Origin: Cyanidioschyzon merolae
Lineage: Eukaryota
DNA: 64,000 nucleotides
Direction: 5' to 3' (one strand)
NCBI GenBank assembly: GCA_000091205.1
Contig: AP006500.2
The position numbers were made by a program, and so were the translations under genes. The notes beneath the pieces are model-generated. The model had not been told where the DNA came from. It searched no databases and saw only the letters and a list, made by a program, of their open reading frames with translations. The first letter of the stretch is position 1, and every line of letters starts with the position of its first letter. Below, piece after piece: positions 18,495-63,898 of this stretch.

Positions 18495-19193
18495 TGTGGA
18501 ATGCGCGCTGCAAACGTGTGTTGTTGATCGCTCGGAATCGATGCTGTGCTCGGGAGCTATGCCATTGTCGGACACGGAGCAGGGCACCAGTTTGCCCAGA
18601 GCAGCACGCACGACCTCGTTGCTCCACAACGAGAACAGCACGCTGCGACGAAGCACTCGGAGCGCCACGCGCTGACATCGCTCATGAGCGCTGCCAGAGG
18701 CCGTGAGCGCCTGGCGCAGTGCCCGCATCACCAACGCTACAGCTTCGCAGCGGACTCGGTACCATTGGTACCCAGGAGACGCGCAGAGAACATTGCGCTC
18801 CCACAAAAAGGCGCTCGCTTTCGGAGCCACGCCCCGCAGGCCGAGTCGAACGGCGACGCCTCGCGGCGTCCATCGGCTTTGAAGGCCGAGCCCGGCACCC
18901 GCCAGAGATCAGCGGGGCGTAGAGCGGGGCACCGCGAATCATATGTAAAGGCGTGTGGCGATGCCGTGCACGAGATCGGAACTGTAAATAATGGTCGTTT
19001 TCTGGAATTTATTAGATATTGCGGACAAATCAGGATGAATAATGCCAAGCACATGCGCGCAACCCATCTCACCACTGCATCGTTTTTGACGTAGTCGCGA
19101 AAACGCGTCTTTGCCACCTGAGGGGCCGGTGACGCGCCCTCGTGGACAGGGCGCCGAAGCAAACCCCGTCTGCCCCTGCGTGGGAACGAGTGC

Positions 19194-24551: not shown

Positions 24552-25929
24552 ATATCAGATGAAAAAGGAGCTCTGGAACTGCACGCCAGCTTCCTACGTC
24601 TCGATTTTATTCCGAAGTTGAGTTTAGATGCACATCCTCGACATTCAACGTGAAGCAATACGCACTTACTAATGCATTCGCAGTCCTAGGATCCTGGGTC
24701 ATCTATTCGGAGCGAATCGTTCGCTTCTGTGCCGTTCCTCATGGTCACGTCACCGGAATCAAGAGGATTCGCAACACCCTCGAAAAAGAACGCCCTATAT
24801 ACCAGATATCGTTGCCCAGTGCACACGTCCAAACCCCGATTCCTATGCTGTCCGTTCGTGTGCAGCATGCTGCAACCGTGCATGCTTCAAGTTTTCTAGC
24901 GTGCGGTTGCAAGGCAACTCGTGGGCCCAGCAAGGCGCCCAGCTGCATGGACGCGGTAAACTGCGCGATGGCGTCCCTCGGGGACTCGTTCACGAGCTCG
25001 TGTCCAAAGTCCACTGAAACTCTCAAGTCAAGTAATCGATGCCTCTCGACAGAGAAACGCTCCTCGCTTTGCGGCCAACGACGAGACCGCGCTCGACAGC
25101 AGCAATCGAGCCATGGCAGGGTATGTTCGTGGCGGCTCCGTTGTGTCCTGTTCGCATGAACAAGTGCCTTGGACTGGGGCTTGCGTCACCGCAGCGATCG
25201 CTTCAGGGGAAGGGCGCGTCACCGCTTTGCTCGAAGCGAGCGTAGACGGATCGAGATGCGTCGACATGATCTCCAGCCTGGCTCTCCCTCGTGTACTTGT
25301 TGCATCATGATCGGCGTAGCGCTGCGAGAATCCTCTACCAAATGGGGCAGCGTGCACCTGCGCATTCACCCGACAGAAGACGCGAGGACGGCATCGCTCA
25401 GAACTCTCCAGGTATCTTGGGGCACGGCAGCGAGCGCGGAAATGGAGCAGGGCATCCAGAGCAGCGCCTCCTGTAACCGGATCATGGGCATCTACCGAGA
25501 TACGAAGCAAACGTTTACGCGCCGCAGGGCGGCGCTCGTCGGAAGACGTATGCTAGGCATCTGGAAACACCTGACCAGAGCCGTTCCACGGCTCTGCGCG
25601 TATCGCACCGAGCCGCCAGAGCGACACGATGGGAGCGGCAAGCGCCATAGAGATCTCAGGTACCAGCTGTGCAAGCGGTACGCGAGTCAGACCACGGAAT
25701 CAGCCTGGTTGGGGCTTGGATGCTATCACCAGCATCCTTCGACTGCTCGTATCGAGATCAGGGGGACAGGAGAGCCTGGCGTATGGAAAGTCAGACACCA
25801 GAGACGGGCAAAGCAAGCGGACTCGGAAAGAGCCCGCCACGACCTATGTCGATTTCAGTGGAAAGAGGCCCAATGCATGGAGTACACGCCCGTGTTCGCT
25901 GACCTATTCCATTGTATTCTTACGCGGGT
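24552..25929. repeat. Dispersed direct repeat R, copy 1 (~1378 bp, ~99% identical to copy 2 at 34333..35710)
   Basis: Track ORFs 24650..25159, 24745..25026(-), 25028..25510(-) and 25169..25936 are duplicated with a constant offset of 9781 nt. The copies differ by ~9 substitutions, giving single amino-acid differences in the track translations. No recognisable protein domain inside. Confidence 0.9.
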
Positions 25930-26828
25930 AAAGTGAGAGCATTGCGTAAGCGCATGCGCACACTTATACACACACAAACGCAAACATACATGCAAAGACT
26001 CCCAGTCGCATGCATACACACAAACCAGCTCATGGCCATTGTTCCGACCTATGCACATGAACTACAGCTGCAACAGCCAACAACTGGAAACCCGGTACAC
26101 AGGTTCACGAGGCGTGCCGCTGGACCAGGTTTTGAAACCGATCGTTAGCGCTTCGTTTTTCGCCGCGCACCTGAACCCGGCTGGTTCGGTGTCCCTGCTT
26201 GATTCTTCGCGGAGGGAACAGTTGCCTGCGCCGTTTTCGCGAGTTTCTGTGCCTTTTGGCCACTTCCGGTTGCAGCTTGCGTGCGCCGCAGTTCCTGCAG
26301 CGCTTTCGCGATCGCACGCAAAACTGCTTTTCGCTTTGCCGTGTGCGTCAAAGCGCCGTCATCGCTAGGCTCCTCTGGAAGCTGAACTTTCACTCTCCCT
26401 GCCACAAAAAAATCACGAGGATGCTTCTTATCAGGCTCCAAGAGAGCTGGGAAACTCAGCTTCTCCTGACACACGCGAAAAACCTCCGCGGCTTCCGGTG
26501 CCGAAACCGCTGAGCGCCTCGACACGCGTCGACCATCGGCCCTGCTCCGTTCTTTCGAGAAATAGATTGGGTACACCAAGATCCACTGACCACTGCCTGG
26601 AGCTGGTGCGGTGTCAACCATGCCGCTGAGGCGTGAACACTTGGCTGTGCAACGCTCTCAAGAACGTGCAGGTGAGCAGGCACCCTCAAGCTGGACATCG
26701 TGCGCTCGGAACGATCAAGAGCGTCGGCCCGCATCCTCCACGCTCATGAACGAGATGCTTTGGGTCAGTTTGAAGCTAGCAACAGCGCATAACGATACGG
26801 TTGAGCTTGTTTTCTTTTAGAACTAGAT

Positions 26829-28046
26829 ATGGCTGCTACGTCAACCTTTCCTGGTACTGGCTGGTGTTTGCAACCAGGTCGCCGTTTGAGCACAGCGTTC
26901 ACGCACGACGGTGGTGTGCTAGTGCAGCTCCGGTCTGTGAGGCGGCAGTGCACGTGCAGCGTTCGTGCGGCTCTCGTGACGCCTCCAGGAGGCACGCCCA
27001 GCTGGAGGCCTGCCATGCTGCGTCTTTCCATGCAAGGCGCACAGGATAGCGGTGCGACAACGTCCGGTTTGTACGGAAACAACGAACAGACGCGTAGTGT
27101 GAGAGCGCCCCTGCGAGACGCTGCGCCCTACAGCGCTGTCTGTGAACTTGCCGCCGAAGCGGGGCAGTTGACGGACGCCGAGCTGCAGAGACGCCTTGAG
27201 AGCATCGCGGGTGTGCCTGCCGTGTTCCCCGAGCCGGAAAAACCGCTCGATATCCCCAATGCGCTGGAGTTTTTCCGGCTGCGCACTGGAGAGTGGCTCT
27301 CCAAACGAGTCACGCAGCACATGGCCTTCCGTCGACAGGAGAGCGGCGAGTCGCGCATTACCGCGCAGTTGCTGGAGGCAAACGACGAACGTGTCAAGCA
27401 ACTGTGCGCCCTACACAACTTTGCGGAAGACGCTGCTATGGGTGGCTGCCTCGTCACCTGGCGAGCGACCCTGCAGTGGGACCAGGAAGGCGACGCCCAT
27501 ACCGGCGAGGCGATATTCGCGCTCGTTGCCCAGCCGGGCTCCAACGGACGGTGCGGTAAGATACTCAGGGACCGTGGTTACGCTGAAGTGGTCCCGATAA
27601 CCGGCGACTTTTACATGGATGAGGAAGATGCGCTGTATTTGGTGACACCGTACGAAGGAGGAGAAGTTTCCGAAAAGTTCGTGTTTGCCGAGCGCGATAT
27701 TTTGTATCGCTTTTCCACAGTCAAACGAATGGGCGGCTTCAGTAACGCCACGTATGCAGTAGAGACACGAATTCCTTACACGGGAAACGGCGAGGTTTTG
27801 GACACGTCATCCATTGAGGACGATGACATTAGTATTTTTGGCCTGTCATCTGTTGATGCGCAGCAATCGCGACAGGAAGAAGACAGTAGACTTCGTCGAT
27901 TTGGCTCGCTGCGAGGTCGAATGGGCGACCGATGGGAGAGTCCTCTCGGTAAGAAAATCGAAATCGATGAGAGCAAGTTACCACCTTCGCTGCGATCGTC
28001 TCCGCAGCCGCCATCGTCCTCATCGCCCAGTACTGACGCGGATTAA
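26829..28046 (+). CDS. cpcS: CpcS/CpeS-family phycobiliprotein chromophore (bilin) lyase domain protein (DUF1001, lipocalin-like), with a ~145-aa N-terminal extension and a ~100-aa C-terminal extension
   Basis: …ALEFFRLRTGEWLSKRVTQHMAFRRQESGESRI…LCALHNF…GGCLVTWRATLQWD…GEAIFALVAQPGSNGRCGKILRDRGYAEVVPITGDFYMDEEDALYLVTPYEGGEVSEKFVFAERDILYRFSTVKRMGGFSNATYAVETRIP matches the cyanobacterial CpcS consensus nearly motif for motif (EFF..S.GKWRSQRT.HHLAFR…GESE; RLLRERGYAE; TEYE…ERFWF…LRFR.SSVKRFGGF..A.F). Confidence 0.75.
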   Translation: MAATSTFPGTGWCLQPGRRLSTAFTHDGGVLVQLRSVRRQCTCSVRAALVTPPGGTPSWRPAMLRLSMQGAQDSGATTSGLYGNNEQTRSVRAPLRDAAPYSAVCELAAEAGQLTDAELQRRLESIAGVPAVFPEPEKPLDIPNALEFFRLRTGEWLSKRVTQHMAFRRQESGESRITAQLLEANDERVKQLCALHNFAEDAAMGGCLVTWRATLQWDQEGDAHTGEAIFALVAQPGSNGRCGKILRDRGYAEVVPITGDFYMDEEDALYLVTPYEGGEVSEKFVFAERDILYRFSTVKRMGGFSNATYAVETRIPYTGNGEVLDTSSIEDDDISIFGLSSVDAQQSRQEEDSRLRRFGSLRGRMGDRWESPLGKKIEIDESKLPPSLRSSPQPPSSSSPSTDAD

Positions 28047-31000
28047 GCGCTGCGCCCTAAAAAGACGATTCTTCCCAACAACGCCAGCTGTGACATCGTT
28101 CGAAGTGATACATAGTTGATATGCGCATCGATGGACATGCATCTGTCCTTCTCCGCATGCTGTTGCTTTGTTTTTTTTTTTGATTCTGGAGCAACTTGCA
28201 GCATCACGCGGTACCGCTGATCGAAAAAGAAACCCATGCTCAGATCATCGATTGATCCGTGGACACCCGACGAGTGGTAGCGTGCGGCAGCACAGGTTTC
28301 CGCCGTTCCACACACCTGGACGGTGGCTGATCTGCTCCGCCTTAAAAACACGAACGCTGATTCCGGGCAAGTCTTTAATTCGCTGCGTTTTTGTGGTGCT
28401 TGTGATAAGACTTGTAACCGCAGACGCTCAGGACGCGGAGTGTGAGCGTGATCATTGTTGCGGTGGGTTCTGTGCTGGATTGCGGGTCGCGCCTTGTCGT
28501 GGCAAGCTACCATAACAGAAAAAAAATGCAAGATAGCGAGCTTCCTAGCATGTTTCGTGCATCATGTACACTGCGCCTCGTAAGCAACATGAAGATGGTA
28601 CCATTTATGTTGTTATACAGGGAGCAGTGAATTCTGGAGCATCTGTTCGAGGACACACCATTTCTTTTTTCTCTTTTTTTGAAGGTATACAGCTCAAGGC
28701 ATGGATCCTGTAGTTTAGAGATAGCTCGCGAAAAACTTGGTGCTGTGACTACCAGCATGCGAAGAACGGCCGTGCTCGTACAAGTCAGGTATTCTCTGGA
28801 TAGCTGGTGGATGAAGTGCCCCTCAAAAAGTCCTCATGCTCTACGTCATGCACCCGAAACAGAACATATGAACCTTTGTCTACATAATTGCCTCCTCGTC
28901 CATCCATACCACTCCATACGTCGTCTAAGATGAATTTGCGAAGAATCCGCATCATACCAAATTTCCGTACCTTGGATACGAACGAGGATGAAGAGGTATC
29001 GATGGCGAAAAACGAAAACGTGTTTCTGCAGGAAACCTCAGCCCATGGAGCTACACGCGATCGATTTGGAACTAGATCGCGAAAGCTTATGATAGGCGGA
29101 ACGGATGCTTGTCTCGATCAATGAGACCTCATTCGCGAAAAATACTAGAACTGGATATGAGCCAGGAAGAAGTGGGAAATTGCTGGTCTCAAAGGAGCGA
29201 TACCCGTTGATTCCAACAGAATCAGCCGTAGCGGCGATTCAATCATGCGGGCGCCAACAAATCGACGAACGGAAAGAGTCGTTCAACACCTCATCCCCTA
29301 TCGATGCAGTTTCTGGTTTCACCTCTCCGTATTCTTGTGTCCGGGTTGTAGGTCACGTCGCATTTTATCATGCGAAAAACCGCTCAGTGGCTACACAGCT
29401 GAGACTGGCCTTGAGCTGTTCTTCGCGCACGACTGTTATCCCAGGTTCAAGCAAACTGAACGTCCTCCATATTGTCATGTGCCGATTTTACGCGCACAGA
29501 TGAGTAGACGAGCTGTTTGCATGCGTGACGCGCAAGTTCTTCGATAAACTGTACTTTGAGAAATCGATGCCCGCGCTACGCAGCTGTAAAGTGCCCTGTT
29601 GCGCCTCTGCTCGTGTGCGGGAGGAAGCGGAAGGCGCTCTTTTGTCCGTGGGCGTGCTCACGAGGGAGAAGGGAACGAAAACGTGCCACGCGAATACGAG
29701 ATACTAGCATTCATAGTACAGGTGAGTTTCAGTCTAAGCGTCGACTGAATTCCTCTGAACCCGATTGACAGAGCGGAAATGGAGAATACAGACGAAATCC
29801 ATGCCATCATCATGCGTAGAGGAGAAAATGACACTTTCGAGAAAACGACTACGCAGGCAAGAAGAGAACGTGTCGAAGCGGAAAAATCGGTCAGAGAGCA
29901 TTGCCAAAGCCTCTCGATTATAACACATCCAGAAGAAGGATCTTCCATAACGTAAGATGCAGGGCGCAACGGGGAATGACGTAGCTTCCTGGTCGAACGA
30001 GCATCGCCTGGCTTTCCTCATCCTGACAAACTTCGTCATGCAATTATTCGTACGAGATACGCACGCTAGGATATCAGGTGTCCATATTCCTCGGAGAGTC
30101 ATCGATCAAGTCGCCGTGCGACAACAGAACTTTTGCTCGGGACAGAATACGGTTGGGAGGCATGCGATATGAGCGCTTCTGTATCGACCTCGACACACTG
30201 AGCAAAGTACGGAGCAGAGATGAATGCTTCGTCCACTTTATTCAGAGAACGAGAGTGCGCGAACGTCCCAATGTCTCTCTGAGACGATTTTTAACCAGAG
30301 TGCATGAGACTGAGCAGGGATCGCAAGCGGTTTCGGGTGTATACAGGCAAGACGCGTTCATTCGCCTGCGACTTCAATGAGTAGGAAAAGGAACTAACAG
30401 ATAGCATGCGTCATTTGGTAGTAGCCTATGGTGCTGGACGCGCTGTCGCACGCAACTGCTGCAACCCTGGCCCGTCAGTGGGCGCATACAACGCGAACGC
30501 GAGTCGATGCTGCACGATCCCCATCGATGCATTGGGCACGATGTACACGAATCACGAGCACGGTTGTGCGCTGAACCAGGCAGAGGAGCAGGAAGGAAAA
30601 CATATCCCGATGCACGAAACGGTGTAGCATACGCTAGTTGAAGGTCGCATGACGAGGCAATGGAATGTGAGAGACTCGTTCTGTTGTGACTTTACCAGCA
30701 ACATTGGCAGCAAGCACGCTCTGCACCGAAACCCGAACGCCTTAATACATATCCGGAAATGGCTCGTACTGCCGCAGCTCTCAGCGACTGTGTTTCCAGC
30801 GAATTTGCGCGGATATCGTTTCGCAACCAGTGTGGATATTGTGCTGAAATGCTGCAGGTTTGGTTTGAAAGTCTCAGTGGCTTGCGAAGGTGGCATTGGA
30901 TCCACGCGGAGAGCCTGAACCTCACACGGTACCATTCATGATTCCAGCATGGCTAGAATATCGCATCTGTACACCAGGGACGTTTTCCTGGGCAACTTAT

Positions 31001-31102
31001 AGACAATCGTGGTGTTTCATTGTTGAACATTACAGACTATCATGAGACGGACCATACGTCAATGGTTTCCTCTGTCATCTTGGTGCCAATGCGTTGACTT
31101 GT

Positions 31103-52477: not shown

Positions 52478-52775
52478 ACACTGTATTATTTCGTACTAAA
52501 AGGACATCAGTGTCCATCGCGGGAAAAGTCCTGATCTAGAATGTACGAACATCTAATGGATTAGAATGGATTATTTCGTACTAAAAGGACATCAGTGTCC
52601 ATCGCGGCACACGCCGCAATCTAGAAAGTACGAACATCTAATGGATTAGAATGGATTATTTCGTACTAAAAGGACATCAGTGTCCATCGCGGGAAACGTC
52701 CTGATCTAGAATGTACGAGCATCTAATGAACTAGAATGGATTATTTCGTACTAAAAGGACATCAGTGTCCGTTGT
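52478..52775. repeat. Tandem repeat, ~88-bp unit x ~3.4 (unit approximately attatttcgtactaaaaggacatcagtgtccatcgcgggaaaagtcctgatctagaatgtacgaacatctaatggattagaatgg)
   Basis: Directly visible. Each unit contains a short palindrome ggaca-tcag-tgtcc. Two units contain tcgcgggaaa, which is a TTTCCCGC E2F-like element on the other strand. The array ends at the first codon of track ORF 52765..54273. Confidence 0.85.
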
Positions 52776-54273
52776 TGGCCAACTTCGTGCCTACGTCATC
52801 GTGTGTCGCAATAGCGAGCATACGCATGCGTTTGTTTCTCAGGCCGCTCGGGGACGTTTTCAGGGCCTGCGCTCTTGTCAACCTCTTTATGTTGCTTCAT
52901 ATATGTTTCAAGGACCTGCACGAACATTTATAGGCACGTATGGGTGCACAAGGTATCAAAGGCTCCGAGCGCTCGCCGCATGCCGATCTGAGACTCGAGC
53001 AGAGCGGCGTGCGACGCAGCGGTTCGATGCAGCTGCTTCCGGTGCGCGACGGGCAAGCAAGCTTGGACACCGGCGGCGCCGCCTAGTGAAAACGCATGGC
53101 GCCTTGGCGATCCAGAGCTCACTCATCCAGCCAAATAACTTCTGGGGTGTCTGGAGCTTGCTCATAGGCTCAGCAACAGCTGGCGTCTGGTTCGAGCGTA
53201 CACGCATCGGAGCGGCGCTCTCGGCACCGCTTCTCTCGTCGCTGCTGGGACTGGCGTTGGTCAACTTGGGCATCTTGCCGGCATCTGCGCCCGCATACCA
53301 GACAGTGAGTAAGGTCGTCGTGCCGCTTGCGATTCCGCTCCTGCTCTTCAACGCGGATATGCGTCGCGTCTTTCGAGAGACAGGTCGACTCTTGAAAGCG
53401 TTTTGGATCGGTGCATTGGCGACAGTGATCGGCACCTTCGTGGCGTGTGCCCTTGTTCCACCTGGAGCAATCGGTGCGGATAATCTTTATCGAGCAGCCG
53501 TGGCTCTGAATGCACGCCACATCGGAGGCTCCGTGAACCTCGTCGCTGTCGCGGAAGCCACCCGAATGGAGCCTGCATTGGTCTCCGCCTTGCTTGCCGC
53601 GGATAATATCGTGCTCGCTATTTACTTTCCGCTTATTTTCGCCTTGTCCAGTTCAGCAGCGAGACCAGATGCGGACGCGAAGCAGGCCGTTGACGGAAAC
53701 CGCAGAGAAACCGACCTGGCAATGCTGTCACTTGCACTTGCGGTTGCGTTCGCGCTATGCTTCCTGAGCTTTGGGATCGCATGCTGGCTGCATCTGGAGT
53801 CCTTCGTGCTGCCGCTCCTGACGCTAATGATCGTCTCACTGGCAACGCTTTTTCCGCGACAGTTTCAACCACTCCAGACCGCTGGTACCATTCTGGGTAT
53901 GTTTTTTATGCAAGTTTTCTTTGCGGTGACGGGTGCGTTAGGCTCCATCGGTGCCGTTATACGCACTGCACCTCTCTTGCTCCTTCTGAGTGTGGTTCAA
54001 GTAGGCGTTCATTTAATGGTGATGCTCATTTTAGGTAGAATTTTAGGTATTTCAAGGGACGATCTCATGCTGGCGTCCAACGCGAACATTGGCGGCCCGA
54101 GTACCGCTGCGGGCATGGCCGCATCCAAGCGCTGGACCGCTCTCATCGTACCTGCTATTCTTATCGGTGTCTGTGGTTATGCTATCGCAACTTTCGTTTC
54201 ATTGGGTTGCTTGCCGTTACTCCCATATTTTGTCCGTGTGTTGCCCTGGGCGTCCGCACTCCAACGCCCATAG
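52765..54273 (+). CDS. DUF819-family polytopic membrane protein (plastid/bacterial-type) with an R/S/A-rich N-terminal extension. The track start is GTG; the first in-frame ATG is at ~52903.
   Basis: …LIQPNNFWGVWSLLIGSATAGVWFERTRIGAALSAPLLSSLLGLALVNLGILP… corresponds to the conserved N-terminal block of DUF819 proteins (…W.ER.T..GK.LSGAV.A.L.GM.LSN.GIIP). It is followed by ~10 hydrophobic helices to the C-terminus. Confidence 0.55.
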   Translation: MSVVGQLRAYVIVCRNSEHTHAFVSQAARGRFQGLRSCQPLYVASYMFQGPARTFIGTYGCTRYQRLRALAACRSETRAERRATQRFDAAASGARRASKLGHRRRRLVKTHGALAIQSSLIQPNNFWGVWSLLIGSATAGVWFERTRIGAALSAPLLSSLLGLALVNLGILPASAPAYQTVSKVVVPLAIPLLLFNADMRRVFRETGRLLKAFWIGALATVIGTFVACALVPPGAIGADNLYRAAVALNARHIGGSVNLVAVAEATRMEPALVSALLAADNIVLAIYFPLIFALSSSAARPDADAKQAVDGNRRETDLAMLSLALAVAFALCFLSFGIACWLHLESFVLPLLTLMIVSLATLFPRQFQPLQTAGTILGMFFMQVFFAVTGALGSIGAVIRTAPLLLLLSVVQVGVHLMVMLILGRILGISRDDLMLASNANIGGPSTAAGMAASKRWTALIVPAILIGVCGYAIATFVSLGCLPLLPYFVRVLPWASALQRP

Positions 54274-55074: not shown

Positions 55075-57519
55075 CTACCCAAACAGATAGCTTCGGAGCA
55101 GTGAACTCGTCTCATTAAAGTCGTGTTCTCCATCGTCGATGATGCTGGTTGCATCGGTGGGGAACACATCCGGAAACGGGGTCGTCTCCGACGCGGCCTG
55201 CTTCGTTCGAACCAAAGCATCTGGCGTCCGTAGCTCGGCCTCGTGAGCGCGCTCCGGTATCGTCCAGTCGCTGAAACTCGTATCCAGCGCGACTTCGCCG
55301 GTGTCGGTGGTAGCCAGCTTGTGCACCTGCTCCGCAACAGATGTCGCCAATCGCAGGACCTCCGTCGCGCGCTTATCCGATTCGCCAACCGTTGCGATGC
55401 AGGCGGCAAACGGGGCAAAGCGCTGGAGTTCAGCACCAGAATATTGCGGGGTGGCCTCATAGAGAACCGCAGCAAACGGCACAAAAAGTGCATCTCTCGA
55501 TGAAGGCACAGTGGCCGGTGTTACCTGCAGGCACACCGGATCCGAAGCGTGTCGCTCTATATATCGCTCCAGGGCGAAGCAGAGGCTGTTCGGCGTGTGG
55601 TATTCGCGGCCCTCGAAAACGAGTGGAATATAATGCCCGCCCTGGAAATACTCCAGTATCCATCTTTGGAGCATGCCGGGTGCAGTCATCGTCCCCAGAG
55701 CTGTATACATGTTCGCTTCACGGTTGGCGGCCAGAAACAACAACCGTTGCCCTGGCGCCGGTTGCGCCGCCTTCAGTAGTCTCTCGACAACCAGCGCCAC
55801 TTGCGCCTGTGATGACGCTCCGTGAAGCACATAATCGTACTCGAGCTCGGCTTCCTCGGTCAGAAGCATGAGTGAGCCGCGATCCAGAGCGATCGCCACG
55901 CGCCCTCGCTGCTTCAGCACATCATCCGCATCCCTTCGATGAAGCGCAGCGAAAAGGTAGCGACCAGTCGACGGTACAAGCGGATCGAAACGAACGCACG
56001 TGGGCACCAGCCCCAGTCGACAGCGCATCTTAAGTCGGAACGCGTGACGGCGTTCCCGTTCCCGCAGCAACAGACTCCAGGTCCGATTGCATTGTTCCCG
56101 GCATCGAACGAGGTCGCGGAGGAGTTCGCTCTCTACCAGGCAGGACAGGTCCGCTTTCGAGGCCTGCGACTGCTGCTGTCTTCGATACAGGGCTTGCCAG
56201 GCGACTGCCTGCAGGCACAGCGCTGCGAGGTGTCGGCGTACGCGCTGCACGGCTGCGGGCTCGTTCGTCATCGGCAGCGGCTGCCCCAGTGGCGAACGCT
56301 CGGAGATGGTGGCAGCGCTACCGGCACCAGCACCACGATGGCGCTGGTGCTGTACACGGCTTGCCAGCATGCTCCAGTAGAGTAGCATGAAGCGCTGGAG
56401 GCGTTTCTGCTTGCGTTGCAGTTCTGCGATAAGCTGATAGGCGCGAGTGCGTTCACGGCGTAGTGAATCCTCCAAACCGGTGACTCGACCTTGTAAAGTC
56501 GCCAAGAGCTGGGAAGACTCCGAGTCCGTCGACGTTCGCAATGTGTGCGCTTCTAGCTCTGCAGTGTTTTCGGTGTGAAGCGCTTTTTTCTGAACGCTTT
56601 GCAGCCGGTACATCAGCAGCCAGATACGTGCGACAAACAAGGCCGTTGTGGTAGCCTCCGTGGTCTCGAGTGGCGTCGATATGCCTTCGGCGTCCGCGAG
56701 TACACTATGCGTTGTCGTCGGTGAGAAGCTGCCCGGCTTCATGGGTGAGTTCAGCACCGATGACCCGCGTTCCACGGCATGGCGAAGACAGAGCGGTAGG
56801 ATCTTCTCAAGGGCGTTGATGGCTCGCACCAGCGCTGCGTGGTGCTGGATCACCAGGTTCGCAATGGTTTGGCGCATGCTTTCATCGTTTTCGACCTCGA
56901 GCTGCTGTGCATAGCGTCGCAGCTGACTCTCTGCGTCTTCGTAGGCAGCTCTGGCTTCGGCGAGCTCGAAGCGTTCCACCGCACCAGGCTCTTCGTCGAC
57001 GTTCTTCTGATGTGCTTTGAATGTTCGTTTGACGTCCTTGTAGTGGAGCTTTTTCTGACGAAATTCGCCGTAGCAGTAGGATTTGGTGAAATTTCGTCGA
57101 GGTTTGATCATGTTGAGCTCTACGGCTCGGCTGAAGGCCGAGAATGCATCGTGGACATCGCGTTCGGTGCGTCCGACAGTTACGAGGACTTCGCGCAGCT
57201 CCCGCGAGAACAGGTACTTGTCTACAGTCTCCTGACTCAGTTCTTCTTCGGAGATGACTTCACCTCGAGCGCGCAGGAGGCGAGCAACATCGATGAGCGA
57301 CTCGGAGCACTGGCGTCCGTGCTCGACCATGGCCACCAGGTCGCTGTTGTAGCGCGCATAGTTCCGTGCTAATAGGTCGTTGGCCCGACGCACGTCCTTC
57401 AACGTTAGCAGTTCCAGACGAAGTTCGTGGTCATCCTCATAGACGTCCTCGAGATGAAGGCGCTCACGTATACGAATGCCGAGTTTTGCGCTCGAGAACA
57501 GCAGCTTACGAGCCGCCAT
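55075..57519 (-). CDS. Hypothetical protein (814 aa). The N-terminal ~250 aa are predicted coiled-coil/helical (possibly BAR/AH-like). The central region is Q/R/A-rich coiled-coil.
   Basis: ATG verified at 57517-57519 (minus strand). Protein-like composition throughout. No family motif recognised by eye. Confidence 0.5.
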   Translation of the reverse strand: MAARKLLFSSAKLGIRIRERLHLEDVYEDDHELRLELLTLKDVRRANDLLARNYARYNSDLVAMVEHGRQCSESLIDVARLLRARGEVISEEELSQETVDKYLFSRELREVLVTVGRTERDVHDAFSAFSRAVELNMIKPRRNFTKSYCYGEFRQKKLHYKDVKRTFKAHQKNVDEEPGAVERFELAEARAAYEDAESQLRRYAQQLEVENDESMRQTIANLVIQHHAALVRAINALEKILPLCLRHAVERGSSVLNSPMKPGSFSPTTTHSVLADAEGISTPLETTEATTTALFVARIWLLMYRLQSVQKKALHTENTAELEAHTLRTSTDSESSQLLATLQGRVTGLEDSLRRERTRAYQLIAELQRKQKRLQRFMLLYWSMLASRVQHQRHRGAGAGSAATISERSPLGQPLPMTNEPAAVQRVRRHLAALCLQAVAWQALYRRQQQSQASKADLSCLVESELLRDLVRCREQCNRTWSLLLRERERRHAFRLKMRCRLGLVPTCVRFDPLVPSTGRYLFAALHRRDADDVLKQRGRVAIALDRGSLMLLTEEAELEYDYVLHGASSQAQVALVVERLLKAAQPAPGQRLLFLAANREANMYTALGTMTAPGMLQRWILEYFQGGHYIPLVFEGREYHTPNSLCFALERYIERHASDPVCLQVTPATVPSSRDALFVPFAAVLYEATPQYSGAELQRFAPFAACIATVGESDKRATEVLRLATSVAEQVHKLATTDTGEVALDTSFSDWTIPERAHEAELRTPDALVRTKQAASETTPFPDVFPTDATSIIDDGEHDFNETSSLLRSYLFG

Positions 57520-59721: not shown

Positions 59722-61440
59722 ATGCATATGAGCCAAAGTTTATTGTCCACGATAACTGACCTGGCGTTGAACAAAACAGATACTGGGAAAAAAGGTCAAC
59801 GTGCAACAACGAGCTCGCGGATAAGCGGTGTCGTGCACGACGACCGACGACACGAGTGGGTTGTTCCGCAGCTCCGACGCTACGCTTCTGCCACGCCACA
59901 GCGACTGCGATATATAGAACACGACAAGTCTGAACCCGATATAGGGTTTATTTTGTCACTGAACGCACGCGAGTCGGCGTTCTATTCCGGTACGAGAACA
60001 CGCAAGCGTTGCAGCGTTCTGGTTCGACGACTTCAATTCACTTTGGCGTGTGCCTCGGATGGACGCTCCGATAAGCCACGTCGGTATTTCCGTTCGAAGA
60101 AAGTGTCTCCAGTGAATCCCGCTGCAATACAGCCGCAGACGCCGGGACATGAAACTGGGTCGTCGCGAAAGAACGCTTTTGCGGCACGATCGCAGCCCCG
60201 TGATGCACCGCAAGGTGTCTTCGAGACAATTCGTCGATGGCTTCAGAAGCACGAACTAGAATCCAGCAGTCTCTGCATCCGGCTTCTTGATGACTATCGG
60301 CACGTTGACGAGTTGCTTCAGTGCTTCTGGAATGCCGTCGAGGATGTGGCCGGGGGCTCCTCTGCCGACGTCCTGCTGGCGCTGCCGCCGCTCCCGTCAT
60401 CCCTTGCCAGTGCCTTGATCGGTCACCTTCGAGAGTGCGCTGACGTCGGTGATGTCTTTGGCTCGCACGTGTTTCTCAACGCGTACGGACCCGATGAGGG
60501 AGCACCTCGGTTCTGTTTGCGGTTACGAAAAGGCTCGTCAGCTGCTGGTGGTGTCGGCGCTACGTCCCAGGATGATCCTTTTTGGTCCGATGACGAGGAC
60601 GACTTTTTGGACCCGCGTTTCGCCGAACTTTTGCGCGCATCACGCGAAGAAGATGCGGGAGAAACGTCACCCGTAGCCGTGGGGCAAGATGCTGCCCCGA
60701 CCGGCATCACGACCAATGACGACCTCGATACCAGACAGAAGCTGCAGTCCAGCGAGCTGTCCCTACCGTCGGATGAAGTGATTCTAGCAGAGAGCCGCGC
60801 TTGGGTCCAGCATATGATCGTCGATGCTGCTGTATGTCCTTTCATGATGTCCGCCGTGCGTGGTGGCTTACCAGCGGGCCAGGTACGCTATGCGGTATCG
60901 CACGCGACAACACCTGAGCGAATCTATCGTGAGTTTTGGAACGAAGTCGCCCTGCTTCGACGGACCCCTTCGAAGGACGTCTCCACCACGTTGCTGGTAC
61001 TGCCAGAACTGGTACAGGGCATAGAAGGCTTTGATGCCATTACCACGCCGCTGAGTGCAGCGCTTGAAGCGCTCCAACTCGACGCCTTCATTCAACTGGT
61101 GTTCTTTCATCCAAAGTATGCATTTCGCGACGGTCGGGATCGCATCAATACGCAAGGTTGCACGGGCGGACACGCCGCGAACTACGTGCGCCGCTCACCC
61201 TACCCCATGATCAATATTCTGCGAACAGAGCAAGTACAGCGTGGGCAGCGGGGCATCCCAACGGAACTCGTTTATCGACGGAATGAGTCATTGATGCGCA
61301 CCATTGGAGCCGAACGACTTGAACAAATGCTTCATCGACGATCTTGGGAGGAGCTTCTCCAACTCGTCCAGGACAATCGTCCCTATGCGGATCTCGAGGA
61401 AGCAGTCAAGCGTGTACGCGATCAGTTTGCGAGTTCCTGA
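59722..61440 (+). CDS. Hypothetical protein (572 aa). The C-terminal ~200 aa may form a conserved domain; I tentatively note resemblance to bacterial DUF1415-type proteins.
   Basis: C-terminal segment …ESRAWVQHMIVDAAVCPFMMSAVRGG…VRYAVSHATTPERIYREFWNEVALLRR…LVFFHPKYAFRDG…NYVRRSPYPMINILRTEQVQRG…IGAERLEQML…. I associate motifs such as CPF, FHP.Y.F, RSPYPM..LR and GAERL with DUF1415, from memory only. Confidence 0.45.
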   Translation: MHMSQSLLSTITDLALNKTDTGKKGQRATTSSRISGVVHDDRRHEWVVPQLRRYASATPQRLRYIEHDKSEPDIGFILSLNARESAFYSGTRTRKRCSVLVRRLQFTLACASDGRSDKPRRYFRSKKVSPVNPAAIQPQTPGHETGSSRKNAFAARSQPRDAPQGVFETIRRWLQKHELESSSLCIRLLDDYRHVDELLQCFWNAVEDVAGGSSADVLLALPPLPSSLASALIGHLRECADVGDVFGSHVFLNAYGPDEGAPRFCLRLRKGSSAAGGVGATSQDDPFWSDDEDDFLDPRFAELLRASREEDAGETSPVAVGQDAAPTGITTNDDLDTRQKLQSSELSLPSDEVILAESRAWVQHMIVDAAVCPFMMSAVRGGLPAGQVRYAVSHATTPERIYREFWNEVALLRRTPSKDVSTTLLVLPELVQGIEGFDAITTPLSAALEALQLDAFIQLVFFHPKYAFRDGRDRINTQGCTGGHAANYVRRSPYPMINILRTEQVQRGQRGIPTELVYRRNESLMRTIGAERLEQMLHRRSWEELLQLVQDNRPYADLEEAVKRVRDQFASS

Positions 61441-61690: not shown

Positions 61691-63898
61691 CTAGTTTTTC
61701 GCTCCGACGATGCTCCTGCGTTTGCTTAGCACCTTAAACATGCGTATGCTTTGTGGTGTGACTTCGACAAACTCGTTTTCACCGCTGATGTATTCAAGCG
61801 CATCGTCTAGCGTGAGCGTGCGAATCCCCTGCAACGTTTTCACGACCTCTTTGGTTGCGCTGCGATGATTCGTCAGCTGTTTCACCCGACAGACGTTCAC
61901 TCGCAAATCCTCCGGATACTTATTCTCGCCAACAATTTGGTTTTCATAGACTTCAGCACCTGGCGCGACAAACAACTGGCCGCGTTCTTGCGCAGCCTCG
62001 ACGCCATAGGTGGTCACTCGACCAGTCTCGTGGGCGAGCAGTGAGCCAACTTCCCGCAGTCGAACCTGACCCACGTAGGGCCGGTACGCTGCAAACGATG
62101 TATGAATGATTGCGGTGCCCCGAGTCAGGGTCAGGAGAGCATTGTTCAGACCAAATAATCCGCGCGTTGGTACGATATACTCCACAATACTGTACTGCTC
62201 ATTGTCCTGACTGTGCGTGAGGTTCAACATTTCTCCCCGTCGCTTGGCCAGCGCGTCCACCACCGCGCCCAGATACTCCTCGGGAATTTGAACCTCGACG
62301 TGATCAAACGGTTCAAGAGGCGTATTCGTTTCCGGGTCCATTTTAAAGATGACCTCAGGAGCACCCACAATCATTTCGAATCCTTCTCGTCTCATGGATT
62401 CGATGAGGATTGTCAAATGCAGTGCTCCTCGGCCGCAGATGGTAAACGAGTCCGCCTTTTCGCCATCTTGAATCCGTAAGGCTACATTGGTACGCGTCTC
62501 GCGTTCTAGACGCTCGCGAAGTTGCCGGCTGGTGAGGAATCGTCCCTCGCGCCCCGCAAAGGGCGTCGTATTGATCGCCAAGGACATGCGCACTGTGGGC
62601 TCCTCAATCTGCACGGGTGGCAGCAGCCGCGGATCGGCAGCATCACAGATCGTTTCGCCGATGCGGATGTCGTCTACACCAGCAACCATGACAATGTCGC
62701 CAGCGTGCGCGCTCTCCGCGCTCACTCGACCGAGATTCTCGAAAAGGAACACCTCATCCACGCGGGCGGTCCGAAGTTCCGCCTCGTCCTTTGCAGGCGT
62801 GCCAACGCGGACAGTTGCACCTTTGCGCAGTGTTCCCGCGTGAATGCGCCCGATGCCAAGAATACCTTTGTAATCGTCGCTGCTAATGTTGGAGACAAGT
62901 AACTGCAGGGGCGCATCTAGTGCGACTCTCGGGCGCGGCAGTCTAAGGATCTCTTCGAACAGGGGTCCCATGTCGTTCGCCAGCTGGTCCGGTGCATACC
63001 CAGCAACGCGCTTCAGCGCTGACGCATACACCACCGGAAAGTCGGCCTGCTCATCCGACGCACCCAGCTCCACAAACAAATCAAAGGTTTTGTTCACGAC
63101 GAAAACAGGTCGGGCAGCGGGGCGATCGATCTTGTTCACAACGACAAGAACGCGTTGGCCCAGGCGCAACGCCTCCCTTAGAACATAACGGGTCTGCGGG
63201 CGTGGACCCTCGACGGAATCGACCACGAGGAGCATCGCATCCGCCATGGAGAGGACTCGCTGCACCTCACCGCCAAAGTCTGCGTGACCCGGCGTATCGA
63301 TCACGTTGATGCGGACTCCACGGTACACGACTGCAGTATTCTTGGACAAGATGGTGATGCCTCGCTCGCGTTCTAGCTCGTTACTATCCATGACAAGACT
63401 AGAAACAGTCTGGTTTTCGCGGAAGACTTTTGCGTGGTGCAGAATTGCATCGACCAGCGTCGTTTTCCCGTGATCAACGTGGGCACAAATGGCAATGTTA
63501 ATAACGTCGTTGCGGGTTTTCAGTGCAGCTGACGCACGTGCAATAGCCTCTGGTATCGCAGAGGTGGTGCGCTCCGCCTGCGCTCGCAAGGCGCGTACCT
63601 GAAGCGTGTGTCGTGCGCTCCGCGGCAGCTGCCGAAAGCTCACTGGACGCCAACCGGGCCGACCAAACGACGTTGAACGATGCCAGAAAGAAGAATTTGG
63701 GCAGACTATAGTCTTTGGCAAAGAAAGATGACCGCTTGGCACAAAGCCGCTCAGTTTATGGGACATGCTTTTTGTTCTCAGGGCGCTGTTAGGAAACACC
63801 GACCGCGTATCCGGCGACCGCTTGTTCCATGCGATTGCCACGGGTGACGGCGGTTCACCGAGGGCCAGCCAGCGACGCAAACTCTGAATTATGGACAT
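61691..63898 (-). CDS. typA: TypA/BipA-type translational GTPase (EF-G/LepA superfamily) with a ~130-aa N-terminal extension (organellar, likely plastid, targeting)
   Basis: G1 …INIAICAHVDHGKTTLVDAIL…; G2/G3 …RGITILSKNTAVVYRGVRINVIDTPGHADFGGEVQRVLSMADAMLLVVD…; G4 …VVVNKIDRP…. Downstream domains have BipA-like layout, …ICGRGALHLTILIESMRREGFEM… and the C-terminal BipA-specific region. The N-terminal 130 aa are S/R/P-rich and non-conserved. Confidence 0.85.
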   Translation of the reverse strand: MSIIQSLRRWLALGEPPSPVAIAWNKRSPDTRSVFPNSALRTKSMSHKLSGFVPSGHLSLPKTIVCPNSSFWHRSTSFGRPGWRPVSFRQLPRSARHTLQVRALRAQAERTTSAIPEAIARASAALKTRNDVINIAICAHVDHGKTTLVDAILHHAKVFRENQTVSSLVMDSNELERERGITILSKNTAVVYRGVRINVIDTPGHADFGGEVQRVLSMADAMLLVVDSVEGPRPQTRYVLREALRLGQRVLVVVNKIDRPAARPVFVVNKTFDLFVELGASDEQADFPVVYASALKRVAGYAPDQLANDMGPLFEEILRLPRPRVALDAPLQLLVSNISSDDYKGILGIGRIHAGTLRKGATVRVGTPAKDEAELRTARVDEVFLFENLGRVSAESAHAGDIVMVAGVDDIRIGETICDAADPRLLPPVQIEEPTVRMSLAINTTPFAGREGRFLTSRQLRERLERETRTNVALRIQDGEKADSFTICGRGALHLTILIESMRREGFEMIVGAPEVIFKMDPETNTPLEPFDHVEVQIPEEYLGAVVDALAKRRGEMLNLTHSQDNEQYSIVEYIVPTRGLFGLNNALLTLTRGTAIIHTSFAAYRPYVGQVRLREVGSLLAHETGRVTTYGVEAAQERGQLFVAPGAEVYENQIVGENKYPEDLRVNVCRVKQLTNHRSATKEVVKTLQGIRTLTLDDALEYISGENEFVEVTPQSIRMFKVLSKRRSIVGAKN

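What the first reader, a model, noticed from the sequence alone, without database searches (positions are those of the whole stretch)
26829..28046. Nuclear gene for a CpcS/CpeS-type phycobilin lyase domain with long N- and C-terminal extensions
The central ~170 aa match the cyanobacterial CpcS-I consensus almost motif for motif. CpcS/CpeS proteins attach bilins to Cys82-type sites of phycobiliproteins. A nuclear, extension-bearing copy implies a phycobiliprotein-containing plastid (red alga, glaucophyte or cryptophyte type) and a transit peptide. The ~100-aa acidic/Ser-Pro-rich C-terminal tail (…IEDDDISIFGLSSVDAQQSRQEED…SSPQPPSSSSPSTDAD) is not part of the bacterial family and may be a lineage-specific addition. 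Together with the plastid-type TypA and DUF819 genes in the same window, this constrains the source organism.
Basis: partly seen in the sequence, partly recalled or inferred. Interest (0 to 1): 0.5.

Follow-up and report, generated by a model that had tools for sequence, protein, structure and literature searches.

The report
Red-algal CpcS bilin lyase gene

Summary
An intact 405-codon ORF lies at 26829-28046 (+). Residues 145-315 match Pfam CpeS (PF09367) end to end (166 bits, E 9e-49). The predicted barrel superposes on the two solved S-type lyases. The protein is 100% identical to C. merolae 10D XP_005538397.1. GenBank calls it "hypothetical protein, conserved", but a 2026 paper lists it as the C. 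merolae CpcS, and CyanoLyase (2012) very probably lists it as CMR092C ("unsure"). The lyase identification is therefore already known.

Tested bilin-pocket residues are conserved, and the specificity position is Val (the phycocyanobilin type), which fits an alga without phycoerythrin.

Two things are new here. First, the tail is not species-specific. All red-algal orthologs carry a terminal block D-x-S-K-[LVI]-P-P-S-[LM]-R. An exhaustive scan of 1.84 billion proteins found that block only on long-form CpcS proteins. Second, red-algal CpcS forms a 100%-supported clade with diagnostic substitutions. An Arg invariant in 82/82 cyanobacterial CpcS is lost, and another Arg is gained elsewhere.

The tail's function is unknown; a docking role is inferred. 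Interest is low to moderate.

The parts
26829..28046 (+). Complete intron-less CDS (405 aa plus stop) of C. merolae CpcS, identical to XP_005538397.1 / BAM82361.1
   Evidence: ORF list. 405/405 identity to P0028. Accession names. Listed as C. merolae CpcS in Table S2 of PMC13193486.
26829..27122 (+). Residues 1-98: putative plastid transit peptide plus a disordered linker. The cleavage site is unknown, and some gene callers start at Met63.
   Evidence: Residues 1-62 have 1 D/E, 7 K/R, 13 S/T and Phe7. pLDDT is below 50 for residues 1-98. The only amino-acid variant in the 90% cluster is T10I. The 343-aa Met63 form is seen on 59 contigs.
27129..27203 (+). Residues 101-125: predicted helical pair ahead of the barrel. 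It is present in Cyanidiales and Porphyridium-type orthologs and absent in florideophyte-type ones.
   Evidence: AF2 helices 101-113 and 116-125, pLDDT about 77-84. Alignment A1.
27261..27773 (+). Residues 145-315: CpeS/CpcS beta-barrel, the bilin-binding lyase domain
   Evidence: PF09367 at 166 bits. 3BDR E 1.4e-32 and 4TQ2 E 7.7e-19. Model pLDDT above 90. Foldseek finds 3BDR with target TM 0.83 and rmsd 2.2 A. Functional residues mapped.
27774..28043 (+). Residues 316-405: C-terminal tail, mostly disordered, specific to red algae
27813..27845 (+). Residues 329-339, IEDDDISIFGL: acidic patch with a hydrophobic pair. It recurs in all red-algal orthologs (e.g. DELSVLGP, EEIFELMNF).
   Evidence: Tails listed. 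Predicted as a helix in P0019 (residues 219-230).
27888..27935 (+). Residues 354-369, RLRRFGSLRGRMGDRW: basic R[FW]G-type segment. It recurs as RRFG, RSRWG or KSRWG in orthologs.
   Evidence: Low-confidence helix 342-357.
27957..27995 (+). Residues 377-389, IEIDESKLPPSLR: terminal block D-x-S-K-[LVI]-P-P-S-[LM]-R, private to red-algal long-form CpcS
   Evidence: D, K, P, P, S and R are invariant in alignment A2. The profile scores family members at 43-70 bits. In the exhaustive scan of 1.84e9 proteins, 15 of 18 hits are CpcS proteins or fragments of them.

Best explanation
The gene encodes the plastid-targeted S-type (CpcS-type) phycocyanobilin lyase of Cyanidioschyzon merolae.

Inferred mechanism. 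After import and removal of an N-terminal transit peptide, the beta-barrel binds free phycocyanobilin made by haem oxygenase and PcyA. It holds the bilin in an extended conformation and delivers it to the Cys82-type site of the plastid-encoded apo-phycobiliproteins (CpcB and the allophycocyanin subunits), where a thioether bond forms to ring A. CpcE/F serves alpha-84 and CpcT serves beta-153.

Because no CpcU has been found in C. merolae, the enzyme most likely works without a CpcU partner, like the stand-alone Thermosynechococcus and Nostoc enzymes.

The 90-aa tail is a red-algal addition: a disordered linker ending in a conserved D-x-SK-[LVI]-PPS-[LM]-R block. I infer that it tethers the lyase to a plastid partner, which has not been identified.

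Shown here: ORF, family, fold, residue conservation, orthology, and the distribution of the tail. Inferred: import, substrate sites, independence from a partner, and the tail's role.
For: - Family and fold: PF09367 over its full length, 166 bits. The best solved relatives are the two S-type lyases. The predicted barrel matches them, with 3BDR at target TM 0.83 and rmsd 2.2 A, about 10 orders of magnitude in E-value ahead of generic barrel proteins.
- Pocket residues tested in GtCPES (bioRxiv 10.1101/2020.03.31.018853) are conserved: R160, H164, W211, W217, E282, R294, S296 and E312.
- Specificity: the position equivalent to M67 is V209, the residue that paper reports for PCB-specific S-type lyases. 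It is Val in 21/21 red-algal and 82/82 cyanobacterial CpcS.
- Organism fit: per PMC13193486, C. merolae has only PC and APC, has PCYA, and has CpcE/F, CpcS (this accession) and CpcT but no CpcU.
- Orthology: the 21 red-algal proteins form a clade with 100% bootstrap inside cyanobacterial CpcS. Identity is 40-49% to CpcS and 29.5% to GtCPES.
- Targeting: transit-peptide-like composition.
- Tail: conserved across Cyanidiophyceae, Porphyridiophyceae, Bangiophyceae and Florideophyceae. It is present in complete MMETSP transcripts. The block is private to this family. In a florideophyte-type ortholog it is predicted as helix-SKIPPSM-helix with pLDDT 67-82.
Against: - No biochemical data exist for this protein or for any red-algal long-form CpcS that I could find.
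- The Arg equivalent to GtCPES R146 is replaced by Leu292 here and by V/L/I/M in all 21 red-algal proteins. It is invariant in 82/82 cyanobacterial CpcS and in both solved structures, and R146A destabilises GtCPES.
- The His equivalent to H21 is Gln163 in C. merolae only.
- CyanoLyase tagged CMR092C as an 'unsure' CpcS because identity to the family is below 53%.
- The absence of CpcU rests on one paper's BLAST table, not on a search of my own.
- Nothing here tests what the tail binds.
Confidence: 0.85

Rival explanations
1. It is a heterodimer-dependent CpcS-I-type subunit. It would need a CpcU-like partner that has not yet been recognised in C. merolae.
For: Other red algae do have a CpcU: G. 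sulphuraria has a plastid-encoded one, YP_009051127.1. The tree does not exclude a CpcS-I affinity. TeCpcS, the stand-alone anchor, is only 36.5% identical, which is less than many other cyanobacterial CpcS.
Against: No CpcU was found in C. merolae by the authors of PMC13193486. My searches returned a single C. merolae cluster for this family. The nearest cyanobacterial sequences include many Nostocales, which from my own recollection of the Shen/Schluchter classification are the stand-alone type III.
Confidence: 0.2
2. It has drifted from catalysis into a bilin-carrier or phycobilisome-assembly chaperone role. The barrel would only bind bilin or apoprotein, and the tail would do the important work.
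For: An otherwise invariant Arg is lost at position 292 in the whole red-algal clade. Three further positions conserved in at least 93% of the cyanobacterial CpcS (R to K/Q/H at 283, W to a variable residue at 285, C to A at 310) are changed, and C. merolae alone has H to Q at 163. A long conserved tail has been added.
Against: All other tested pocket residues are invariant, and the domain is under strong conservation across Rhodophyta: 54 invariant columns in A1. C. merolae needs a Cys82 lyase, and this is the only S/U-family candidate reported. The gain of Arg152 in all red-algal proteins, where cyanobacteria have Ser, may compensate for the lost Arg.
Confidence: 0.08
3. The extensions are annotation artefacts. 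The real protein would start at Met63 or later, and/or the tail would not be part of the functional protein.
For: Many automatic gene calls use Met63: the 343-aa form appears on 59 contigs. Residues 1-98 and most of the tail are predicted to be disordered.
Against: A nuclear-encoded plastid enzyme needs a presequence, and residues 1-62 have the expected composition. The tail is in frame with no stop. It is conserved in motif order in every red-algal ortholog and is present in complete transcripts of other red algae. The block scores 43-70 bits within the family.
Confidence: 0.05
4. It is a phycoerythrobilin-specific CpeS-type lyase.
For: The Pfam family name is CpeS. GtCPES is the second-best solved relative.
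Against: The specificity position is Val209, not Met or Ile. Identity is 29.5% to GtCPES against 40-49% to CpcS. C. merolae has PCYA only and no phycoerythrin.
Confidence: 0.02

Closest known systems
CpcS (Ycf58, Tll1699) of Thermosynechococcus elongatus, PDB 3BDR: the stand-alone 'CpcS-III' S-type lyase
   Same: Same Pfam family and same beta-barrel fold. It shares the pocket residues R, H, V, W, W, E, R, S and E. It presumably has the same job (PCB to Cys82-type sites) and the same independence from CpcU.
   Different: Only 36.5% identical. It is ~190 aa with no transit peptide, no N-terminal helical pair and no long tail. It keeps the Arg that red algae have replaced at position 292, and it has Ser where red algae have Arg152.
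Cyanobacterial ~200-aa CpcS proteins (Nostoc, Calothrix, Chamaesiphon, Pseudanabaena, Pleurocapsales and others)
   Same: These are the closest sequence relatives, at 40-49% identity to C. merolae and 50-54% to other red-algal orthologs. All tested pocket residues are shared.
   Different: Their tail is short (~25-30 aa) and ends in a conserved C-terminal GW in 68 of 75 sequences. They lack the PPS[LM]R block. Seven positions differ diagnostically from the red-algal clade.
GtCPES of Guillardia theta, PDB 4TQ2: a cryptophyte PEB-specific S-type lyase, also a eukaryotic nuclear gene
   Same: Same fold and family. It is the source of the mutational map used here.
   Different: 29.5% identity. It has Met at the specificity position where this protein has Val, and it is specific for PEB and CpeB. 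Nothing resembling the red-algal tail was seen in the crystallised 189-residue chain.
CpcS-I/CpcU heterodimer of Synechococcus sp. PCC 7002 (Saunee et al. 2008, cited)
   Same: Same family and the same target sites (Cys82 of CpcB, Cys81 of ApcA and ApcB).
   Different: It requires two paralogous subunits. No CpcU is reported for C. merolae. Membership of the type I sub-clade could not be established.
Red-algal orthologs annotated 'Phycocyanobilin lyase subunit CpcS' (Porphyridium purpureum) and 'Chromophore lyase CpcS/CpeS 2' (Gracilariopsis chorda)
   Same: Same clade (100% bootstrap). Same architecture: transit peptide, barrel and long tail with a PPS[LM]R motif.
   Different: Non-Cyanidiales tails add PSxxSAFxSGF repeats and a second helix (DFxASF) after the block. 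Porphyridium-type tails keep only GPPSMRSAF. C. merolae alone has Gln163.

Membership tests
S/U-clan phycobilin lyases (Pfam PF09367 CpeS / DUF1001) | Significant full-length match to the family profile, above the curated cut-off | tested here: met
   166 bits against a cut-off of 23.3. Residues 145-315 cover profile positions 2-170 of 170.
S/U-clan phycobilin lyases | Antiparallel beta-barrel (lipocalin/FABP-like) fold as in 3BDR and 4TQ2 | tested here: met
   The AF2 barrel has pLDDT above 90. Foldseek's top two hits are 3BDR (E 1.5e-15, target TM 0.83) and 4TQ2 (E 2.9e-15). The next hits have E of 4e-05 or worse. This is a prediction, not an experimental structure.
S/U-clan phycobilin lyases | Conserved pocket and rim residues shown by GtCPES mutagenesis to matter (R18, H21, W69, W75, E136, R146, R148, S150) | tested here: inconclusive
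   Six of the eight are conserved: R160, W211, W217, E282, R294 and S296. H21 is Q163 (C. merolae only) and R146 is L292 (V/L/I/M in all red algae). The red-algal clade has Arg152 where 82/82 cyanobacterial CpcS have Ser. Whether this compensates was not tested.
CpcS (PCB-type) as opposed to CpeS (PEB-type) | Val rather than Met/Ile at the position of GtCPES M67 | tested here: met
   V209, and Val in 21/21 red-algal and 82/82 cyanobacterial CpcS. The rule is taken from bioRxiv 10.1101/2020.03.31.018853.
CpcS (PCB-type) as opposed to CpeS (PEB-type) | Groups with CpcS sequences in a phylogeny | tested here: met
   The red-algal clade nests among cyanobacterial CpcS. It is 40-49% identical to CpcS and 29.5% to GtCPES. 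No CpeS/CpeU/CpcU/CpcV reference set was available apart from GtCPES.
   The sister group is unresolved, with bootstrap of 0.53 or less. No labelled type I anchor sequences were available. No CpcU is reported for C. merolae, which argues against type I behaviour.
S-type lyase (function) | Binds bilin and catalyses thioether attachment at Cys82-type sites of phycobiliproteins | not testable with these tools
   This needs a biochemical assay. No published assay for this protein was found.
Nuclear-encoded plastid protein of a red alga | N-terminal transit peptide and plastid localisation | tested here: inconclusive
   The composition and Phe7 fit, and orthologs begin MAFV. No predictor or localisation data were available.

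The most novel reading that the evidence does not exclude
Red-algal CpcS is a distinct, previously undescribed sub-type of S-type lyase with two defining features. The first is a relocated arginine: Arg lost at position 292 and gained at position 152. The second is a tethered C-terminal helix-SK[LVI]PPS[LM]R(-helix) module on a long disordered linker. That module would dock the nuclear-encoded enzyme onto a plastid partner such as nascent or apo-phycobiliprotein, the phycobilisome, another lyase, or the thylakoid surface. Chromophore attachment would then be spatially coupled to the assembly of plastid-encoded antenna subunits.
Probability: 0.3. Interest if true: 0.45.

Novelty: already known. 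Interest (0 to 1): 0.25.

Why it matters
It matters little for the core claim. The gene is in the published C. merolae genome, carries a precomputed CpeS domain, and has been listed as the alga's CpcS.

It is useful mainly as a correction: the GenBank product name is still "hypothetical protein, conserved". It also pins the window to C. merolae.

The modest added value is the tail. No red-algal bilin lyase has been characterised biochemically in the literature I could search. The tail block is conserved across red algae and private to this family, and it comes with an Arg152/Leu292 swap. Together these give concrete, cheap constructs for testing how a nuclear-encoded lyase is coupled to plastid-encoded phycobiliproteins: with and without the tail, R152S/L292R, and Q163H. 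C. merolae is genetically tractable, and its thermostable phycocyanin is of biotechnological interest.

Tried and rejected
1. NCBIfam scan of the protein: no hit, so it gave no subfamily name.
2. Indexed homolog search with the domain alone: only 37 candidates and 8 hits, few of them named. This was not enough for subfamily labels.
3. Indexed search with the tail-block profile A2: three weak hits of 24-25 bits, and it did not even list known family members. It was uninformative. A local test showed that the profile itself is sharp, so I replaced this search with the exhaustive scan.
4. First tree attempt with Biopython timed out. I redid it with my own NJ and bootstrap code.
5. CpcS-I versus CpcS-III: no labelled type I, CpcU or CpcV sequences could be obtained. 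The scan of species genomes returned only the 80 best CpcS loci, so this remains unresolved.
6. The idea that red-algal CpcS is one of the 'CaRSP' phycobilisome linkers: rejected as a lead. The two papers that mention CaRSP1 concern phycobilisome scaffolding proteins and light acclimation, and I did not pursue it.
7. The three hits to the tail block outside CpcS: P0056 is a helicase from a bacterial MAG with four copies of DIDWSKIPPSMH, sitting beside T4SS pilin genes. P0057 and P0060 are bacterial repeat proteins. Their scores are summed partial matches, so I judged them coincidental.
8. Synonymous-only variation among metagenomic C. merolae contigs: I discarded this as evidence of selection, because those contigs were retrieved by exact protein identity.
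9. Antisense and downstream ORFs: no family match. There are no tRNA or Rfam genes and no tandem repeats near the gene.
10. A resemblance of DLSKVPPSMR to the Tic62/TROL FNR-binding motif (..DLKPPSSP..) is recalled from memory only and was not tested. I give it no weight.
Full report
**1. What is there**

The window holds an uninterrupted ATG-initiated ORF at 26829-28046 on the + strand, encoding 405 aa. An in-frame stop lies 12 codons upstream of the ATG. Pfam CpeS (PF09367, formerly DUF1001) matches residues 145-315 across the whole profile (positions 2-170 of 170) at 166 bits against a curated cut-off of 23.3, E 8.7e-49. NCBIfam has no model that matches.

By sequence, the best solved structures are the two S-type phycobilin lyases:
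- 3BDR, Thermosynechococcus 'Ycf58'/CpcS, E 1.4e-32
- 4TQ2, Guillardia theta CPES, E 7.7e-19

An AlphaFold2 model built on 19 homologs gives a beta-barrel at residues 145-315 with pLDDT above 90. Foldseek against the PDB again puts 3BDR first (E 1.5e-15, target TM-score 0.83, rmsd 2.2 A) and 4TQ2 second. Generic barrel proteins such as nitrobindin follow about ten orders of magnitude behind.

**2. Whose gene it is, and whether it is known**

The protein is 405/405 identical to BAM82361.1 / XP_005538397.1 of Cyanidioschyzon merolae 10D, which GenBank names 'hypothetical protein, conserved'. The same gene, with the same neighbours, occurs on hot-spring metagenome contigs.

The window's other genes are eukaryotic:
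- SRP19 at 26145-26621 (-), divergent from the lyase gene across 207 bp
- a cytochrome P450
- Tam41
- a Myb protein
- a PQ-loop protein
- DUF819 at 52765-54273
- DUF1415
- TypA/BipA at 61691-63898

The lyase assignment is not new. Table S2 of a 2026 FEBS J paper lists XP_005538397.1 as the C. merolae CpcS, next to CpcE, CpcF and CpcT. CpcU is listed only for Galdieria (PMC13193486). The CyanoLyase database paper of 2012 already placed a C. merolae gene, CMR092C, in the CpcS family. It flagged the gene 'unsure' because identity to the family is below 53% (PMC3531064). Both sources report a single C. merolae CpcS, so CMR092C is very probably this gene, although I could not map the locus tag directly. 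No other paper in the library mentions CMR092C.

**3. Is it a working PCB lyase?**

Ten GtCPES pocket residues were replaced by alanine, and Met67 was changed separately (bioRxiv 10.1101/2020.03.31.018853). I mapped them through an alignment of 21 red-algal proteins, 82 cyanobacterial CpcS, TeCpcS and GtCPES.

- Conserved here and in every CpcS examined: R18 (R160), W69 (W211), W75 (W217), E136 (E282), R148 (R294), S150 (S296) and E168 (E312).
- N22 aligns with H164. That position is His in every CpcS examined, TeCpcS included, so GtCPES is the one that differs there.
- The specificity position, M67, is V209. That paper reports Val for PCB-specific S-type lyases and shows that M67V/A opens GtCPES to PCB. 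This fits an alga that makes only PCB (it has PCYA) and has only phycocyanin and allophycocyanin.

There are two departures:
- The His equivalent to H21 is Gln163. This occurs in C. merolae alone; the other 20 red-algal and all 82 cyanobacterial sequences have His.
- The Arg equivalent to R146 is Leu292. This Arg is present in 82/82 cyanobacterial CpcS and in both solved structures, but it is V/L/I/M in all 21 red-algal proteins.

A scan for clade-diagnostic columns found seven:

| C. merolae position | Cyanobacterial CpcS | Red-algal CpcS |
|---|---|---|
| 152 | S | R |
| 278 | M | G |
| 279 | S | E/A |
| 283 | R | K/Q/H |
| 285 | W | variable |
| 292 | R | V/L/I/M |
| 310 | C | A |

The reciprocal loss of Arg at 292 and gain of Arg at 152, each complete in its clade, suggests that the arginine was relocated rather than its function lost. 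I could not measure distances in the model, so this is inference.

**4. Subfamily**

A neighbour-joining tree was built from 172 columns with Kimura distances and 200 bootstraps. It recovers the 21 red-algal proteins as one clade (100%), with the Cyanidiales as a sub-clade (91%), nested among cyanobacterial CpcS. No sister group has support above 0.53.

The C. merolae domain is:
- 40-49% identical to 75 cyanobacterial CpcS from species-representative genomes (Nostoc, Calothrix, Chamaesiphon, Pseudanabaena, Pleurocapsales and others)
- 36.5% identical to TeCpcS
- 29.5% identical to GtCPES

So it is CpcS-type, not CpeS-type. The reported absence of CpcU in C. merolae argues that the enzyme behaves as a stand-alone lyase.

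**5. The extensions**

N-terminus:
- Residues 1-62 have 1 acidic, 7 basic and 13 Ser/Thr residues, with a Phe at position 7.
- Orthologs begin MAFV....
- Residues 1-98 are predicted to be disordered.
- The only amino-acid variant in the 90% cluster is T10I.

All of this fits a red-algal transit peptide, though it is not proof. Residues 101-125 form a moderately confident helical pair (pLDDT ~80). This pair is shared with Cyanidiales and Porphyridium-type orthologs but not with florideophyte-type ones.

C-terminus. The 90-aa tail is not peculiar to C. merolae. Every red-algal ortholog has a tail of 68-223 aa with the same order of elements:
1. An acidic patch with a hydrophobic pair (IEDDDISIFGL here).
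2. A basic R[FW]G segment.
3. PSxxSAFxSGF repeats (outside the Cyanidiales only).
4. A terminal block, IEIDESKLPPSLR here and (A)GIDLSK[VI]PPSMRxDFxASF in most others. Across 16 sequences, D, K, P, P, S and R are invariant.

Porphyridium-type proteins keep only GPPSMRSAF. A few short MMETSP and metagenome forms (P0017, P0018, P0023) keep only PSPRSAF.

Named carriers span four classes:
- Cyanidiophyceae: C. merolae, Cyanidiococcus, Cyanidium
- Porphyridiophyceae: P. purpureum, P. aerugineum
- Bangiophyceae: Pyropia vietnamensis
- Florideophyceae: Gracilariopsis chorda

Complete MMETSP transcripts include the tail. In a florideophyte-type ortholog (P0019), AlphaFold2 predicts a disordered linker of ~120 residues followed by helix-SKIPPSM-helix with pLDDT 67-82. 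In C. merolae the block reaches only pLDDT ~66.

The cyanobacterial relatives are ~200 aa. Of 75 examined, 68 end in a C-terminal GW after a variable linker of ~25 residues.

**6. Is the tail block found anywhere else?**

A profile of the block scores family members at 43-70 bits and unrelated proteins at 25 bits or less. An exhaustive HMMER scan of 1.84 billion representative proteins found 18 hits at E <= 1e-3. Fifteen of them either carry a CpeS domain or are C-terminal fragments of such proteins. The other three are bacterial repeat proteins whose scores are sums of partial matches. One is a helicase from a bacterial MAG with four DIDWSKIPPSMH repeats, which I regard as coincidence.

At this sensitivity the block is therefore private to red-algal long-form CpcS. 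It is not a general plastid sorting or docking signal shared by several families. A shorter motif (PPS[LM]R alone) on other proteins is not excluded.

**7. How it most likely works**

Shown here: the ORF, family, fold, pocket conservation, PCB-type specificity residue, orthology, and the anatomy and distribution of the tail.

Inferred from established knowledge of S-type lyases (Saunee et al. 2008; Kronfel et al. 2013; Overkamp et al. 2014, as cited):
- The imported protein binds PCB in the barrel.
- It transfers PCB to Cys82-type sites of CpcB and the allophycocyanin subunits.
- CpcE/F and CpcT serve the other two phycocyanin sites.

More loosely inferred: the tail acts as a flexible tether whose terminal block docks on a partner. 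The candidates are the plastid-encoded substrates or the phycobilisome, another lyase, or the thylakoid surface. Nothing here discriminates among them.

**8. Verdict**

This analysis adds three things:
- the exact identity of the gene;
- evidence for PCB rather than PEB specificity;
- the observation that red-algal CpcS is a well-defined sub-clade with an arginine swap and a private, conserved C-terminal module. I found no description of this in the searchable literature.

This is a modest, testable lead rather than a surprise.

Noticed in passing
window 18830-18918 (-): A selenocysteine tRNA gene (anticodon TCA) is called by both ARAGORN and Rfam (RF01852, 61.1 bits against a gathering score of 47). 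A 2026 review states that C. merolae retains tRNA-Sec and parts of the Sec pathway but has few, if any, selenoproteins (PMC13578239). The gene is therefore known.
   Followed up: yes
window 24554-25929 and 34335-35710: A 1,376-bp direct repeat at 99.4% identity, 9.8 kb apart, brackets the SRP19, CpcS and P450 genes. The ORFs inside it have no Pfam match. The metagenomic C. merolae contigs show the same duplicated set of gene calls. Its nature (dispersed repeat or segmental duplication) was not determined.
   Followed up: partly
window 26145-26621 (-): An SRP19 gene (PF01922, E 5e-24) lies head to head with the CpcS gene across a 207-bp intergenic region. This is a likely shared bidirectional promoter in a compact genome.
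   Followed up: partly
window 28047-31100: About 3 kb downstream of CpcS has no convincing ORF, and GC is lower there (0.495 for 28001-30000, against 0.55-0.61 for most of the window). No tRNA or Rfam hit was found. Ungapped comparison with the metagenomic contigs breaks down just after the stop codon, which suggests an indel difference there.
   Followed up: partly
loci L005-L084 (cyanobacterial CpcS genes): Of the 75 nearest cyanobacterial CpcS proteins, 68 end in a C-terminal Gly-Trp (LGW, SGW, TGW or FGW) after a variable linker of ~25 residues. I do not know of a described role for this terminal motif. Red-algal tails have an RW[GES] element at a comparable distance from the barrel, but homology between the two was not tested.
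   Followed up: partly
locus L085 4001-6865 (protein P0056, bacterial MAG GCA_964350285.1): A 954-aa ResIII/Helicase_C protein carries four C-terminal repeats of ~85 aa, each ending in DIDWSKIP[PT]SMHEKG. This closely resembles the red-algal GIDLSKIPPSMR block. Its neighbours are T4SS pilin genes. I judged the resemblance coincidental.
   Followed up: partly
window 59722-61440 (+) and 55075-57519 (-): A 572-aa ORF has a C-terminal DUF1415 domain (E 4e-38). An 814-aa ORF has no Pfam match at all. Neither was examined further.
   Followed up: no
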